Of a stretch of 64,000 nt of DNA, positions 15,001 through 60,000 are shown one piece after another. A program made the position numbers. How positions within the stretch are numbered: position 1 is the first letter of the stretch; each line of letters opens with the position of its first letter. The stretch is taken from assembly GCA_036785375.1 (NCBI GenBank), contig JAWMAR010000160.1, forward strand, positions 1,922,001 to 1,986,000, written 5' to 3'. Origin of the DNA: Leucoraja ocellata (lineage: Eukaryota).

Positions 15001-18000
15001 ACAAAGGCTTTTCTCGGTACCTCGGTACACGTGACATTAGACTAAACTCCAGCCTGGTAGGAGCGTAGCCAGCCTGTGTTTAAAAGTCTGTACACTTTGG
15101 TTATATTTTCATCCCCTTAAAGTTAGGTCACCTCTACCAATAGTGAGATCACTGAGAGAACCAGCGTAATGTGTGCTGTCTGTGTTGGACACTTACACAA
15201 TGCACTGGCCGAGACATGGAGGTCACGGGGAGAAGGTACAAATTCCATACATACATCACCTGTAATCAGGATCAAACTCGGATCTCTGGGCTGTGAGGTA
15301 GCAACTCTACCGCTGCGCTACCATGCCGCCCGTAAATGTAGATGACAAGCGGTGTGGGTGAAGGACATGTCCACGGGGTCGAGGGCAAGCCGCCAAATTA
15401 GATTCAAAAGTGACTTGGTATGAGGAGATACATGGGTGATGAAGAGTATGGGCTTTGTTGATGCAAGCACATGACCAGTGATGTACCACAACGACTAGTG
15501 CTGACATTCTATACATGAACAGCTTGGATATGAATGTAGGAAGTCTGAGGAGTCAGCTTACAGATGAGGCAAACGCTGATGGTGTTGTTGAATAGGCTAT
15601 AGGATGATATAGATATAGGGCCAAGCTCCTATACTTTGTAAGGAGTTATCGTCTATTCCTGGAATCATAGCTTCTGTAGGCGAAGGGGTCATAGGTTCCA
15701 ACTGAAGGAACTTGATGTAGTTGATCTGATTGACCACAGAAACAATGAGTGGCTGGCTCTGTTGCAGTGTTAAATATACAATCCACAGATGTAGGAAAAC
15801 TTTAGCAGAGGACAGTATGTGCGGAGACTTCTAGAGGTGTACCATAGATCATATAGAGGTATACAAAATCATGAGAGGAATAGATTGGGTAGATGCACAG
15901 AGTCTTGCCCAGAGTAGGGAAATCGAGGACCAGAGAACATAGGTTCAAGGTGAAGGGGTAAAGATTTAATAAGAATCCAAGGGGTGACTTTTTCACGCAA
16001 AGGGTGGTGGGTGTATGGAACAAGCTGCCAGAGGAGGTAGTTGAGGCTGGGACTATCCCATCGTTTAAGAAACAGTTAGACAGGACAGGACATTGATAGG
16101 ACATGTTTGGAGGGATATGGACCAAGCGCAGGCTAGTGGGACTAGTGTAGCTGGGACATTGTTGGCCGGTGTGGGCAAGTTGGGCCGAAGGGCCTGTTTC
16201 CACACTGTATCACTCTATGACTGTGGCCAATGCTGTGAGAAAACAGCTGTAGTTACTTTCAATGCCAACACTGATGTGAATAGGTTCTTTTTTCCAACAT
16301 TTGTATTTAATATTGCTTCACCAATAAGCTATATTTTATTCAAAGATATATTCTGTTTACTTGTACAAATGTATCACTAGAAACAGCCCTTGTTATATCA
16401 TTACCTACATCTTCATTTAGTGGTTACAAATATAAGTAGCATCGTTGGAAAAATTGTCTTGACAAGAAATGGCTTTAGGCTGTAAATGCAGTGAAATACA
16501 CAGTATGTATTCAGGAACCAGCGGCAACAAAAGTCTAATATATGACTGTGAAATTAATGCTATAACAGGCACAATATAATACAGTATAAACAATTTGCTT
16601 GATAGAGTCTACAGTGTTGTTAACATCAGGAGGCCCAACCTGTGAAAAGTGCTAGCCTGATTATCGGGGTACTGCTGAAATGGGGGGAGTCAAAAATGGA
16701 TCGAGGAGTTAGAATTGAATTAGCATGAAAAGTAAGTAAGAAAGAGAAAAAGGTAAACACTACAACTATGCAAATAGACAAGAGGCTATCACTGTGTAAC
16801 ATTTGGGTACGGGACTGGTGAGGACACGTCTGTCACTGTATAACACTGGGGTACTGTAACGGAGGGGACACGTCTGTAACTGTATAACACTGGGATACAG
16901 CACTGGCAGGGACAGGTCCGTCACCGTGCAACACTGGGGTACTGTAATGGTGGGGACAGGTCTGTACCTGTACAACACTGGGGTACAGTACCGGTGGAGA
17001 TGGGTCGGTCACCGTGTAACCCTGGGGTACATTACTGATGGGGACAGGATCGTCACTGTGTAACACTGGGGTACAGTACTGATGGGGATAACTCTGTCAC
17101 TGGGGTACAATACTGGTGGGGACAGGTCTGTCATTGTGTAACACTAGGGTGCAAACCTGTCATGTATAATACTGGAATGCAGTATTCTAGAGCACTAAGT
17201 GCAATTCCACTGATTACTCTAGCAGAGAGATCATTTGATTTACTCTCACGAGTGGAAATCAGGATGAATAAGAATTTGTAAATGGACATGAATGAATACT
17301 GAGCATTGTGTAGTTGGAGGAGGTTACAGGGATAGGAAGGGATGAGAGTATGGCAATAATGAAACAAGAGGAAGAGAAGAATGGCACAAAAGGCAGGAGT
17401 AACTCAGAGGGTCAGGCAGCATCTCTGGAGAAAAGAAATAGGTGATGTTTCGGGTTGAAACCCTTCTTCAAACTGAAGAAGGGTCTCGACCCAAAACATC
17501 ACCTATTCAATTTCTTCAGAGATGCTGCCTGACCCGCTTAGTTATTCCAGCCTTTTGTGTCTGTCTACGGTTTAAACCAGCATCTGCAGTTCCTCCCTAG
17601 ACAAGAGGGTAAGAATACAGGAAAAGGCATCGACTCACATTTTATCCATTTATGACAATATTTTATCAGACAACATTCACGTAATTTAAGCAAGTAGTTC
17701 ACCTTGGAAAGATTATTGCACCAAGTGTGTGATCCAATGTCCATTCCCATCAATGGGAAGAAAAGTCGCATGGCTCTGATGTTCTCGGTGCACAGCTGGC
17801 TTTGATGCCAGCGTTCTGGTATCAGTTCAGAGTTTGACAAATGGACACAAAAACGACCCAAAATTCAGAACATTCCTGAGAATGAACTGTTGTTACATTT
17901 CCTAGAGTAAGTGCCATCAGTCGACTGTAACATTGCATCAGGAGCCGCCTCAGTAACAATATTCAGACAATTGTTGTGATATGTCCGTCTAACTCACAGG

Positions 18001-57000: not shown

Positions 57001-60000
57001 TCTTTTTCAGCTTCCTTTCTCCCCCCCCTCCTCTCATCCTTCTCCGTCAGTCTGAAATGTCCCGACCCGAAACGTTGCCCCACCATTTCCCTCCATAGAC
57101 GCAGCCTGACCCGCCGAGTTCCTCCAGCACCTTGTTGCTTTATATTAGAACAGCCACCCCGTCCCTGTAACTATTTCACCTTTCATTGTACCTTAATGTG
57201 AATCAGGACGTGGAAGCTTTTCATTGTACCTCGACAATAAACCTTTGATAATAAACTAAACTCTCAGACTGAAACATTGAAAAGAGGTGTAGTAATAGGC
57301 CCTTCGGCCCTTCGAGCTAGCACCGCCATTCAATATGAAGAATGGTCTTGACCCGAAAAGTCACCTATCGATGTTCTCCAGAAATGCTGCCTAACCCGCT
57401 GAGTTACTCCAGCATTTTGTGTGTCTATAAACGAAACTTTTCCACTCAGAGAATTGTGAATTTGTGGAATTCTCTGCCACAGAGGACAACAGAGGCCAAT
57501 TCACTGGATGAATTTAAAAGAGTTAGATGGAACTCTAGAGGCTAGCGGAAAGACGGGATATGTGGAGAAGGCAGGCACGGGTTATTGATTGTGGGTGAGC
57601 AGCCATGATCACAATGTATGGCGGTGCTGGCTCGAAGGGCCAAATGGCCTCCTCCTGCACATATTTACCACGTTTCTAAACTTCAACTGCGGTCCGGTCC
57701 CGAGAATCTCACTGTTAGAAGCGAAGATAAATCAGTGGCCAGTTCAGGGTGTGGGTTTTGCCAGAGGTGACGGGGAACTGGGGTTGGGAGGGGGAGAGGG
57801 GAGGCGGGGGTCGGCGACGCCATGGACAAGTTTTCTCCCACCAAGAACCAGCTTCAGCCAAACCCCCAGCATCTGAGCACATATGATTACAGCCCTCTCC
57901 TAAGCGCCGTGTTACCGGTAACCGCGGTCAGATCACAACCCGAACAACAGCGCAGCCTCGCCGCAGGTACCTGCCACAGTAAACAACCAGGTCAAAATGT
58001 AAAGGTATCCAGCCCACGGCGTGAGTCCCGCATCCATAGCTGAATGGTTGCTTTCAAGCGCTCAATCCTCAGACTAAAGGTTTCCTCGGCAAGTTCCCTC
58101 GCGTTCCCCAGCGCTTTGAGATGAGCGCGGTACCAGGGCTGGACTTGCACTGGAAGGAAACTTCAACACCGCCCTCCTTTCCACAACTGCCTGAGATGCT
58201 GGCATCGACATTTATGTTTCCACATCAGCCTTGGCCGTCCCCCGCCTGTCTTATCACACCAAGGGTCTCGACCCGAAACGTCACTCATTCCTTCTCTCCA
58301 GAGATGCTGCCTGTCCCGCTGAGTCACTCCAGCATTTTGTGCTTATCTTAGGTGTAAATCAGCGTCAGCAGTTCCTTGCGACACAAAATGATACTTATGT
58401 CCAGTTCAACGGGACATTTTGAAGTCCCCTTGATTGCATTTTATCTCTGTATGCTTCGTTGTCAGCTTGTCCTAGGTAACAATGATCTATTCTGGACAGA
58501 CACACAATACAGCAGCATCTCTGGAGAGAAGGAATGGGTCTGATGCTTCAGACTGAAGAAGGATCTCAACATAAATGTCACCCATTCCTTCTATCCAGAG
58601 GTGATGCCTGTCCCGCTGAGTTACCAGAGACCCAGGTTCGATCCTGTCCACGGGTGCTGCCTGTACAGAGTCTGTACCCTCTCCCCGTGACCTGCGTGCG
58701 TATTCTCCGCGAGCGCCGGCTTCCTCCCACATTCAAAATATGTACAGGTTTGTAGGTTAATTGGCTTGGTAAAATTGTAAATTGTCCTGTAGTGTGTGTA
58801 GGATAGTGTGCGGGATCACTGGTCGGTGCGGACTCGGTGGGGCTTAAGGGCCTGTTTCCGCGCTGTATCTCTAAACTAAACTAAACTAAAGTAAATCAGA
58901 TAATACTACACATGAATACAATCAGGCCAAATTCAAGAACAATAGATGGAGCAAGAGAAAGGTGCAGAGTGCAGAATATGGTTGTCAGCATTGTAGCCTA
59001 ACAGTTCCAGAATAAAAGTCCAATGTCCATAAGCATGACTTCTACATGTGAAAGGCGACATTATCAGAATCAATGTGTAGGAAGGAACTGCAGATGCTGG
59101 TTTACACCGAAGATAGACTATACATGCTTACAATCGAGCCATTTACAGTGTCTAGGTACAGGATAAGGGCAATAAAATTTAGTGCAAGATAAAGTCCAGT
59201 AAAGGAAAGGATCTTGACACAAACCGTCACCTATCCATGTTCTCCAGAGGTGCTGCTTAAGGTCATAAGGAATAGGAGCAGAATTAGGCCATTCGGCCCA
59301 TCAAGTCTATTCAGTGCTGACTGTCTTGCTGGGTTACTCCAGCGTTTTGTATCTTTACTTGGTAAACCAGCATCTGCAGTTCCTTATTTCTACTTATCCA
59401 GCCTGGATTTGCTTTGCCAATCAAAGCTACCAAACAACTTTAGCCAACAGAGCTTGGCTATAAAGAGAATGTTATTTATAAGATAAGATATTGAAGATGA
59501 TTATGTGGAAATTCATTTCTTGTGGGACGAGGTGTTATTGTCAAAACAAATCAATATTTCTTCCTGTGCATCTGTGCTTTATGTCAGGAAAAAGGAAAAT
59601 TACTCATCTTTTATTTGTATCCATTGAGAATATTGTGTTATGAAAGCCCCATTGATGCTAAATTTCTTTCCTGTTGTAATGACTTTGATTGCCAAGAATC
59701 AGAGGAGTTTTATAGTGTTATGCACAGCGAATTCCTAACACAAAGCTCCCACATGGAGCATACACATTAGTTCCTTTCACATAAGATAGACACAAAAAGC
59801 TGGAGTAACTCAACGGGACAGGCAGGCAGCATTTCTGGAGAGAAAGAATGGGTTGAGACGCTCGACCCGAAATGTCACCCATTCCTTCTCTCCAGCGATG
59901 CTGCCTGTCGCACTGAGTTACTCAGTCTGAAGAAGGGTTTCGGCCCGAAAAGTTGCCTATTCCTTCACTCCATAGATGCTGCCGCACCCGCTGAGTTTCT

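What the first reader, a model, noticed from the sequence alone, without database searches (positions are those of the whole stretch)
17989..58037. Tandem ICAM-like pair with divergent architecture and swapped ICAM1 hallmarks
Seen: both genes have a 67-nt signal exon and a 315-nt D2 exon with strong similarity, so they are tandem paralogs. After D2 they differ completely. A has two more C2-like domains; B has one I-set domain only ~500 bp after D2, leaving no room for extra exons. Gene A has the ICAM1-like promoter but a GEYNV tail resembling recalled ICAM5/ICAM2-type tails. Gene B has the ICAM1-like tail but no TTCNNNGAA in its proximal promoter. Inference: this is subfunctionalisation, possibly by reciprocal exon loss from a 5-domain ancestor, into an inducible and a constitutive integrin ligand, paralleling ICAM1/ICAM2 independently.
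Basis: partly seen in the sequence, partly recalled or inferred. Interest (0 to 1): 0.7.

Follow-up and report, generated by a model that had tools for sequence, protein, structure and literature searches.

The report
Tandem pair of ICAM-family adhesion genes
Two neighbouring genes of a non-mammalian vertebrate encode related ICAM-type cell-adhesion proteins that share their integrin-binding head and their tail but carry different middle domains, which is an ordinary outcome of an old gene duplication.

Summary
Two minus-strand genes each have a 67-nt signal-coding exon, an ICAM-type D1 exon, a 315-nt D2 exon (51% protein identity, no gaps) and a transmembrane/tail exon. Gene A (31600..17989) adds two C2-like Ig exons. 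Gene B (58037..50475) adds one I-set exon 503 bp after D2.

D1 and D2 place both genes in the ICAM family rather than with VCAM1 or MAdCAM1. Both D1 exons pass Pfam ICAM_N, the D1 profile hits only ICAM chains in the PDB, and the integrin-binding Glu and four D1 cysteines are conserved.

The "swapped hallmarks" idea fails. The two tails are homologous to each other (E 3e-6, no gaps), and A's GEYNV and B's QEYKL are the same motif.

Gene A does have a perfect palindromic GAS site about 115 bp upstream of its ATG, and gene B has none. A STAT-inducible versus constitutive split is therefore a fair but untested prediction.

No relic exons support reciprocal loss from a 5-domain ancestor. The duplication is old (synonymous sites saturated), so their absence decides nothing.

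Orthology and synteny could not be tested.

The parts
31534..31600 (-). Gene A, coding part of the first exon (ATG plus signal peptide, 67 nt, phase 1). The donor is GTTAGT.
   Evidence: the only hydrophobic 67-nt ATG..GT candidate upstream of the D1 exon. Sequence read.
29949..30224 (-). Gene A, D1 exon (276 nt). ICAM N-terminal domain with six Cys and a conserved Glu.
   Evidence: Splice sites. Pfam ICAM_N E 3.8e-05, 23.7 bits against a cut-off of 21. ICAM-2 E 0.001, and an ICAM-1 D1 alignment with Glu on Glu34.
28136..28450 (-). Gene A, D2 exon (315 nt).
   Evidence: 51% identical to B's D2. The A+B D2 profile has ICAM-2 D2 as its best PDB hit, E 2.6e-4.
26236..26529 (-). Gene A, D3 exon (294 nt). 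ICAM D2/D3-like C2-type Ig domain.
   Evidence: Pfam ICAM1_3_5_D2 E 1.5e-09, 38.5 bits against a cut-off of 27.5. ICAM-1 E 8.6e-11, aligning to both D2 and D3 of ICAM-1.
23702..23986 (-). Gene A, D4 exon (285 nt). Divergent C2-like Ig domain.
   Evidence: Weak Pfam Ig_2 / ig / C2-set_2 matches, all below cut-off. Atlas look-alikes are C2-set_2 clusters. No significant PDB sequence hit.
17989..18266 (-). Gene A, transmembrane plus cytoplasmic tail exon, stop codon included.
   Evidence: Homologous to B's tail exon.
31711..31719 (.). Perfect palindromic GAS/STAT site TTCCGGGAA, 111-119 bp upstream of gene A's ATG.
   Evidence: It is one of only 2 TTCCNGGAA sites in 64 kb.
31738..31746 (.). Second TTCNNNGAA site, 138-146 bp upstream of gene A's ATG.
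31829..31838 (-). kB-like decamer TGGACTTTCC, one mismatch to GGGRNWYYCC, 229-238 bp upstream of gene A's ATG. Weak evidence.
   Evidence: One-mismatch sites occur about once per 680 bp in the window.
57971..58037 (-). Gene B, coding part of the first exon (ATG plus signal peptide, 67 nt, phase 1). The donor is GTACCT.
   Evidence: Sequence read.
56423..56671 (-). Gene B, D1 exon (249 nt). ICAM N-terminal domain with four Cys and a conserved Glu.
   Evidence: Pfam ICAM_N E 6.3e-05, 23.0 bits against a cut-off of 21. Alignment to A's D1. The low-confidence model has ICAM-3 D1 as its best fold match.
53117..53431 (-). Gene B, D2 exon (315 nt).
52335..52613 (-). Gene B, third Ig exon (279 nt), I-set type.
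   Evidence: Pfam I-set E 5.5e-14. Generic I-set neighbours in the PDB and in the Atlas.
50475..50638 (-). Gene B, transmembrane plus short cytoplasmic tail exon, stop codon included.

Best explanation
The region holds two intact, head-to-tail genes of the ICAM family, produced by an old tandem duplication in a non-mammalian vertebrate.

Each gene encodes a type I membrane glycoprotein made of:
- a signal peptide;
- an ICAM-type D1 with the double-disulfide cysteine pattern and the acidic Glu that in mammalian ICAMs binds the metal ion of the beta2-integrin I domain;
- an ICAM-type D2;
- a variable stalk;
- a transmembrane helix;
- a short basic tail carrying a shared A-x-K-x-x-E-Y motif.

Gene A, about 504 codons by exon arithmetic, has a stalk of two C2-type domains that look like diverged copies of a D2-like exon. 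Gene B, about 357 codons, has a stalk of a single I-set domain unrelated to any exon of A.

Shown:
- the exon structure and the paralogy;
- family placement of D1 and D2;
- homology of the tails;
- purifying selection on D2.

Inferred:
- Both proteins are leukocyte beta2-integrin ligands acting through D1.
- The stalks set a different reach above the membrane.
- Gene A is cytokine (JAK-STAT) inducible through its proximal GAS site, and gene B is not.

Whether the stalk difference came from gain or loss of exons is left open.
For: Exon models:
- Every exon is open, has AG/GT borders and is in phase 1.
- The coding lengths add to multiples of three. A: 67+276+315+294+285+278 = 1515. B: 67+249+315+279+164 = 1074 (arithmetic).

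Paralogy:
- D1 34% identical, D2 51%, tail 29% over 48 ungapped residues at E 3e-06, signal peptides 7 of 22 identical.

ICAM placement:
- Pfam ICAM_N is above its cut-off for both D1 exons.
- The D1 profile hits 4 PDB sequences at E<=10 and all 4 are ICAMs: ICAM-2 2.1e-06, ICAM-3 0.031, ICAM-1 0.36 and 0.62. VCAM-1 chains are in the same PDB copy but are not hit.
- A's Glu38 aligns with Glu34 of ICAM-1. This Glu and the four Cys are invariant between A and B. Glu34 is the LFA-1 contact (PMC10215618, passages read).
- The D2 profile's best hit is ICAM-2 D2 at 2.6e-4. ICAM-5 D2 scores 1.1e-3 and VCAM-1 D2 0.11.
- A's D3 hits ICAM-1 at 8.6e-11 and Pfam ICAM1_3_5_D2 at 1.5e-09.
- The B D1 model has ICAM-3 D1 as its top fold match: E 2e-3, TM 0.68.

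Age and selection:
- In D2, pS is 0.66 (saturated) and dN/dS is 0.25.
- Outside interspersed repeats, only the D2 exon is still alignable at DNA level between the two loci.

Promoter:
- TTCCGGGAA lies at -111..-119 of A. It is one of 2 such sites in 64 kb (1.42 expected).
- With 20 TTCNNNGAA sites in 64 kb, two within one 150-bp stretch has a Poisson chance of about 0.001 (arithmetic).
- The human ICAM1 IFN-gamma/STAT element lies -116 to -36 from the translation start (PMC10215618).
- The same 11-mer core is the GAS of a standard reporter plasmid (PMC3340179, one passage).
Against: - B's D1 alone finds no ICAM in the PDB. Its 2 hits are both antibody fragments at E about 1. Its ICAM placement rests on a Pfam score only 2 bits above the cut-off, on its likeness to A, and on a low-confidence model (pLDDT 61) whose fold matches include none at E<=0.001.
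- Neither 315-nt D2 exon matches Pfam's ICAM1_3_5_D2 model at E<=1. Only generic Ig models match.
- In the D2 profile search, DSCAM ranks second (5.9e-4), between ICAM-2 and ICAM-5.
- The ICAM-2 alignment puts the Glu one column off.
- TTCNNNGAA is not enriched in the window as a whole: 20 found against 21.9 expected.
- The exact kB consensus is absent from both promoters.
- The transcription start sites are unknown.
- There is no transcript, expression or binding evidence of any kind.
- No sequence from another non-mammalian species could be compared.
Confidence: 0.68

Rival explanations
1. A 5-domain ancestor (D1-D2-D3-D4-I-set) was duplicated, and each copy lost different exons. Promoter and tail hallmarks of ICAM1 were then split between the copies, giving an inducible and a constitutive ligand.
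For: - The head and tail exons are shared and only the stalk differs.
- B's I-set exon sits just before the transmembrane exon, where a fifth domain would lie.
- The GAS site is present in A only.
Against: - No relic of an I-set exon in A, and none of D3/D4-like exons in B. tblastn of all 11 exon peptides at E<=10 found hits only to the modelled exons plus chance-level noise.
- The introns hold no Ig-like open frame of 60 codons or more.
- The tails are homologous to each other, so there is no swap.
- A's D3 and D4 resemble D2-like exons, which fits internal duplication.
- The relic test is weak, because the duplication is old.
Confidence: 0.12
2. Gene B is not an ICAM. It would be a VCAM1/MAdCAM1-type ligand of alpha4 integrins. 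Its D1-D2-I-set order matches the repeating unit of VCAM1, and that domain order of VCAM1 is recalled, not tested here. The pair would then be orthologues of different tetrapod genes.
For: - The third domain is I-set, unlike the C2-type domains described for ICAM-1 and ICAM-3 (PMC10886500, passage; Pfam).
- B's D1 alone gives no ICAM hit in the PDB.
- VCAM-1 D2 is a weak hit of the D2 profile, E 0.11.
Against: - B keeps Glu, not the Asp of the alpha4-integrin ligands (the Asp is recalled), at the column aligned with ICAM-1 Glu34.
- The D1 profile that includes B hits only ICAMs and no VCAM-1 or MAdCAM-1 chain.
- B's D2 is 51% identical to A's, and the shared profile prefers ICAM-2 and ICAM-5.
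- The best fold match of the B D1 model is ICAM-3 D1.
- B's tail is homologous to A's.
Confidence: 0.12
3. One of the two models is incomplete, or one gene is dead. Undetected exons, or exons beyond the window, would make the architectures equal, or one copy is an unexpressed pseudogene.
For: - All models are ab initio and no transcript was available.
- A's D4-to-transmembrane intron is 5.4 kb and full of repeats.
- A 133-nt duplicate of the I-set exon end shows that local rearrangement has occurred in B.
Against: - Both models run from an ATG and signal peptide to a transmembrane segment and a stop, with consistent phases and no internal stops.
- D2 is under purifying selection, dN/dS 0.25.
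- No further Ig-like frames or tblastn hits exist anywhere in the 64 kb.
Confidence: 0.08

Closest known systems
Mammalian ICAM-1 (CD54)
   Same: - Signal peptide and each Ig domain lie on separate phase-1 exons.
- D1 has four conserved Cys, and its Glu aligns with Glu34.
- D2- and D3-like domains: A's D3 hits ICAM-1 at E 8.6e-11.
- Single-pass membrane protein with a short basic tail.
- Gene A has a palindromic GAS at about the same distance from the ATG as the human IFN-gamma element (-116 to -36; PMC10215618).
   Different: - Four (A) or three (B) Ig domains, not five.
- Similarity is low: E-values of single domains are 0.005-0.6.
- A's D1 has two extra Cys.
- B's third domain is I-set.
- No exact kB consensus site.
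- Likeness of the tails to the ICAM-1 tail could not be tested.
Mammalian ICAM-2 (CD102)
   Same: It is the best PDB match of both the D1 profile (2.1e-06) and the D2 profile (2.6e-4), over nearly the full domain lengths.
   Different: ICAM-2 has only D1 and D2 (PMC10886500). Both window genes have extra stalk domains.
VCAM-1 / MAdCAM-1
   Same: - General design: an integrin-binding D1 with an acidic residue, followed by a C2-type D2.
- VCAM-1 D2 is a weak hit of A's D3 (0.0075) and of the D2 profile (0.11).
- An I-set domain after D2 as in B. This feature of VCAM-1 is recalled, not tested.
   Different: - The D1 profile does not hit VCAM-1 or MAdCAM-1 at E<=10.
- The acidic residue here is Glu, not Asp.
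- VCAM-1 D3 is not among the PDB hits shown, so B's I-set domain could not be compared with it.

Membership tests
ICAM family | N-terminal ICAM domain (Pfam PF03921 ICAM_N) above the curated cut-off. | tested here: met
   A scores 23.7 bits and B 23.0 bits against a cut-off of 21. The margins are small.
ICAM family | D1 double-disulfide pattern (Cys-x3-Cys twice), aligned with the ICAM D1 cysteines. | tested here: met
   The four Cys are invariant between A and B and align with the Cys of ICAM-1, -2 and -3 D1. A has two additional Cys.
ICAM family | Conserved Glu in D1 (Glu34 of ICAM-1) that contacts the integrin I-domain metal site. | tested here: met
   A's Glu38 aligns with ICAM-1 Glu34. 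The column is invariant in B. The profile alignments to ICAM-1 and ICAM-3 keep Glu on Glu, and the ICAM-2 alignment is one column off. The role of Glu34 is taken from PMC10215618.
ICAM family | ICAM-type second domain. | tested here: inconclusive
   The D2 profile's best PDB hit is ICAM-2 D2 (2.6e-4), and ICAM-5 D2 scores 1.1e-3. Neither D2 exon matches Pfam ICAM1_3_5_D2 at E<=1, and that model matches A's third domain instead.
ICAM family | Type I membrane protein with a short, basic cytoplasmic tail. | tested here: met
   Both last exons encode a hydrophobic stretch followed by basic residues and a stop. Binding of ERM proteins or actinin was not testable.
ICAM family | Binds beta2 integrins (LFA-1 / Mac-1). 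| not testable with these tools
   This needs a binding assay.
ICAM family | Orthology or synteny with the tetrapod ICAM cluster. | not testable with these tools
   The flanks 1-17988 and 58038-64000 show only repeat-derived frames.
VCAM-1 / MAdCAM-1 | D1 of the VCAM/MAdCAM type, with Asp in the integrin-binding loop (the motif is recalled). | tested here: not met
   Both genes have Glu. The D1 profile has no hit to VCAM-1 or MAdCAM-1 at E<=10, although VCAM-1 chains are in the searched copy.
VCAM-1 / MAdCAM-1 | An I-set domain following D1-D2, as in the VCAM-1 repeat unit (recalled). | tested here: inconclusive
   B has an I-set third domain. Its neighbours are generic: FCRL5, contactins and others, with no VCAM among the 60 shown of 182 hits and only generic I-set clusters in the Atlas. 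No VCAM-1 D3 sequence was available for comparison.

The most novel reading that the evidence does not exclude
Gene B would be a surviving intermediate between the ICAM and VCAM1 designs: an ICAM-type, Glu-bearing D1-D2 head on a VCAM1-like I-set third domain. In that case the common ancestor of ICAMs and VCAM1 had a D1-D2-I-set unit. This tandem pair would preserve, side by side, that ancestral form and the derived all-C2 ICAM form, with inducible STAT control already attached to the ICAM-like copy before tetrapods.
Probability: 0.1. Interest if true: 0.6.

Novelty: new member of a known kind. Interest (0 to 1): 0.3.

Why it matters
The ICAM literature found here is almost wholly mammalian. 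The one evolutionary paper read only dates ICAM1 and VCAM1 broadly to bony and cartilaginous fish (PMC7916592, passages).

A clean pair from a non-mammalian vertebrate shows which parts of an integrin ligand are kept and which are free to change. The kept parts are the D1 Glu and cysteines, D2, and a tail motif. The free part is the stalk.

The pair also gives a simple testable case of regulatory divergence after duplication: a GAS site in one copy only. This is useful for comparative immunology, but it is not surprising.

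Tried and rejected
- PDB search with B's D1 alone gave only two antibody fragments at E about 1.
- PDB search with A's D4 gave nothing better than E 0.31.
- PDB searches with the two cytoplasmic tails gave one irrelevant hit at E 1.9 and no hit. Likeness to mammalian ICAM tails stays untested.
- AlphaFold2 on A's D4 as a single sequence gave pLDDT 43.3. The model is unusable and was not sent to fold search.
- Atlas look-alikes for B's I-set exon and for A's D4 gave only generic I-set and C2-set_2 clusters. 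They gave no family-level lead. The first Atlas call did not complete because the machine was busy, and it was repeated unchanged.
- The exact kB consensus GGGRNWYYCC has one site in the window, inside an intron at 23504, and none in either promoter. With one mismatch there are 94 sites against 149 expected, too common to carry weight.
- A search for relic exons by tblastn found none.
- blastn between the two loci found almost only interspersed repeats.
- The flanks were scanned for neighbouring genes to test synteny, and nothing was recognisable.
- Literature searches for ICAM-family evolution in fish or sharks found no description of such a pair. One search found 0 papers. These searches are narrow and do not show that none is in print.
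- One gene spanning both loci was rejected. B ends in a transmembrane segment and a stop, A starts with its own ATG and signal peptide, and 19 kb with a plus-strand LINE reverse transcriptase lies between them.

Full report
**Scope and limits**

- The window has no N.
- I do not take it for human. Its ICAM-like exons match human ICAM chains only distantly. The best whole-chain E-value is 8.6e-11, single domains score 0.005 to 0.6, and the one fold match listed shows 25% identity. The introns are packed with SINE-like and LINE-like repeats.
- All searches were made exon by exon. Protein lengths below come from adding exon lengths.
No sequence from another non-mammalian vertebrate could be brought in. 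Orthology and synteny therefore stay unchecked.
- Supplementary files of papers were closed. The supplements of PMC7916592 may hold the trees behind its dating of ICAM1 and VCAM1.

**1. The observation**

Both genes lie on the minus strand. Stop-to-stop frames and a scan for phase-1 AG/GT borders give the exon chains below. Every Ig exon has a pyrimidine-rich acceptor and a GTRAGT-like donor.

| Exon | Gene A | nt | Gene B | nt |
|---|---|---|---|---|
| Signal (coding part) | 31600..31534 | 67 | 58037..57971 | 67 |
| D1 | 30224..29949 | 276 | 56671..56423 | 249 |
| D2 | 28450..28136 | 315 | 53431..53117 | 315 |
| Third Ig | 26529..26236 (D3) | 294 | 52613..52335 (I-set) | 279 |
| Fourth Ig | 23986..23702 (D4) | 285 | none | |
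| Transmembrane + tail, stop included | 18266..17989 | 278 | 50638..50475 | 164 |
| Sum | | 1515 (504 codons + stop) | | 1074 (357 codons + stop) |

Both sums are multiples of three, so the splice phases are consistent throughout.

- The 503-bp intron holds two SINE fragments and no Ig-like frame.
- No minus-strand frame of 60 codons or more in any intron looks Ig-like.
- tblastn of all 11 exon peptides against the whole window at E<=10 finds no further Ig exon, inside or outside the two genes.

**2. Paralogy and age**

| Part | Identity | Statistic |
|---|---|---|
| D1 | 30/88 (34%) | E 4e-09 |
| D2 | 53/104 (51%), no gaps | E 1e-36 |
| Transmembrane + tail | 14/48 (29%), no gaps | E 3e-06 |
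| Signal peptide | 7/22 | none |

- At DNA level the only collinear match between the loci that is not an interspersed repeat is the D2 exon, at about 70% identity in two blocks that run about 17-19 nt into the flanking introns.
- Nei-Gojobori counts on D2 give pS 0.66 (saturated), pN 0.31 and dN/dS about 0.25. D1 gives about 0.8 and the tail about 0.7, both unreliable at this divergence.
- The duplication is therefore old. D2 has been held under purifying selection, and D1 has changed faster.

**3. What the domains are**

*D1*
- Pfam ICAM_N is the only family matched by either D1 exon. A scores 23.7 bits and B 23.0 bits against a cut-off of 21.
- A's D1 hits ICAM-2 (E 0.001). It also aligns end to end with ICAM-1 D1 (E 0.59), with its Glu38 on Glu34 and its cysteines on the ICAM-1 cysteines.
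- B's D1 alone finds no ICAM. It has 2 hits, both antibody fragments at E about 1.
- A profile of the two D1 exons hits four PDB sequences at E<=10, and all four are ICAMs: ICAM-2 2.1e-06, ICAM-3 0.031, ICAM-1 0.36 and 0.62. VCAM-1 chains are in the same PDB copy, since they appear, yet they are not hit.
- The four cysteines and the Glu are invariant between A and B. A has two more cysteines.
- An AlphaFold2 model of B's D1, from a two-row alignment, reached only pLDDT 61. Its best PDB fold match is ICAM-3 D1 (1t0p_B, E 2e-3, TM 0.68). No match reached E 0.001, and ICAM-5 appears at rank 50. This is weak support only.

*D2*
- The two-sequence profile ranks ICAM-2 D2 first (2.6e-4). DSCAM follows (5.9e-4), then ICAM-5 D2 (1.1e-3) and VCAM-1 D2 (0.11), among 41 hits at E<=1.
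- Against this, neither D2 exon matches Pfam's ICAM1_3_5_D2 model at E<=1.

*A's D3*
- Pfam ICAM1_3_5_D2 scores 38.5 bits against a cut-off of 27.5.
- The six best PDB hits are all ICAM-1 or ICAM-5 (8.6e-11 to 8.6e-05). The alignments fall on both D2 and D3 of ICAM-1.

*A's D4*
- It gives only sub-threshold Ig models and no significant PDB hit.
- Its Atlas look-alikes are C2-set_2 clusters.
- The single-sequence model was unusable, at pLDDT 43.

*B's third domain*
- It is a clear I-set domain (E 5.5e-14).
- Its neighbours are generic: FCRL5, contactins, neurofascin and Robo. No ICAM or VCAM appears among the 60 shown of 182 hits, and the Atlas gives only generic I-set clusters.
- It has no detectable similarity to any exon of gene A.

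*Relations within the window*
- A's D3 resembles the D2 exons (E 0.001).
- A's D4 resembles D2 and D3 only faintly (E 0.06-0.27).

**4. Tails**

- The two tails align without gaps from the membrane span onward. They share Ala, Lys, Glu-Tyr, Asn, Pro and Asn in register.
- A's ...RARKTGEYNV... and B's ...KAQKSQEYKL... are therefore the same motif.
- B stops about 17 residues after the motif, and A runs on for about 50 more.
- So there is no swap of hallmarks. There is one ancestral tail, lengthened or shortened in one copy.
- Likeness to mammalian ICAM tails rests on recall only (searches found nothing).

**5. Promoters**

- TTCNNNGAA occurs 20 times in the window against 21.9 expected, so it is not enriched overall.
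- Two of the 20 sites lie 111-119 and 138-146 bp upstream of A's ATG. None lies anywhere upstream of B's ATG, in 58038-64000.
- The first site is the perfect palindrome TTCCGGGAA. It is one of two TTCCNGGAA sites in 64 kb, with 1.42 expected.
- By Poisson arithmetic, two sites in one chosen 150-bp stretch has a chance of about 0.001.
- The human ICAM1 element bound by STAT1 and STAT3 lies -116 to -36 from the translation start (PMC10215618, passages).
- The same core with its flanking T and A is the GAS of a standard reporter plasmid (PMC3340179, one passage).
- That the human ICAM1 element has this exact sequence is my recollection and was not checked.
- A kB-like TGGACTTTCC lies at -229..-238 of A. 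One-mismatch sites are common, and the exact consensus is absent from both promoters.
- B's upstream region runs into a SINE about 220 bp from the ATG.

**6. Reading**

- The best-supported account is an old tandem duplication of an ICAM-family gene.
- Both copies kept the working head (D1 with its Glu, and D2) and the membrane anchor with its tail motif. The stalk diverged in domain number and type.
- I infer that both proteins are beta2-integrin ligands and that A is STAT-inducible while B is not.
- The history of the stalks is open. Gain of an I-set exon in B, internal duplication of a D2-like exon in A and loss from a longer ancestor all fit the data.
- No relic exons were found, but at this age none would be expected to survive.
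- A VCAM1-type identity for B is disfavoured by the Glu, the D1 profile result, the 51% D2 identity with A and the shared tail. Only proper trees can exclude it.

**7. Novelty**

- This is a new member, or pair of members, of a known family, of the sort that automatic annotation would label ICAM-like.
- The one unusual feature is the I-set domain on an ICAM head.
- In searches I found no paper describing such a pair. Those searches were narrow.

Noticed in passing
window 51612-51744 (copy) and 52242-52372 (original), minus strand: A 133-nt duplicate, 89% identical, of the last 36 nt or so of B's I-set exon, its GT donor and about 90 nt of the following intron. It lies about 630 bp downstream, in the I-set-to-transmembrane intron, and a LINE-tail-like repeat lies between the two copies. 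An AG sits just before the copy, but the resulting 38-nt piece would break the reading frame, so it is probably unused.
   Followed up: partly
window 18564-19428: A GC-rich, roughly 865-bp palindromic element in gene A's last intron. It has long internal inverted repeats (212-nt arms, 95% complementary) and 54-nt terminal inverted repeats. It looks like a foldback or MITE-type insertion, and it gives long open frames on both strands that are not genes.
   Followed up: partly
window 33272-34735, plus strand: An open frame of 487 codons between the two genes matches Pfam RVT_1 (E 4.8e-32) and also the short ALKBH8_N model. It is a LINE-type reverse transcriptase. A decayed relative lies at 46339-46812 on the minus strand.
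   Followed up: partly
window 31034-31234: A CA-rich imperfect tandem array (period 26, about 6-7 copies) in gene A's first intron. It produces the His/Thr-rich false open frames seen on the plus strand.
   Followed up: no
A D1 exon, 30224..29949: A's D1 has two cysteines (residues 47 and 56 of the exon translation) beyond the four shared with B and with ICAM D1. They could form a third disulfide.
   Followed up: no
whole window, e.g. 58261-58385, 52936-53056, 50045-50152, 21188-21312, 29262-29386: Several families of short interspersed repeats at 75-90% identity fill the introns and flanks of both genes in both orientations. They account for nearly all DNA-level matches between the two loci.
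   Followed up: partly
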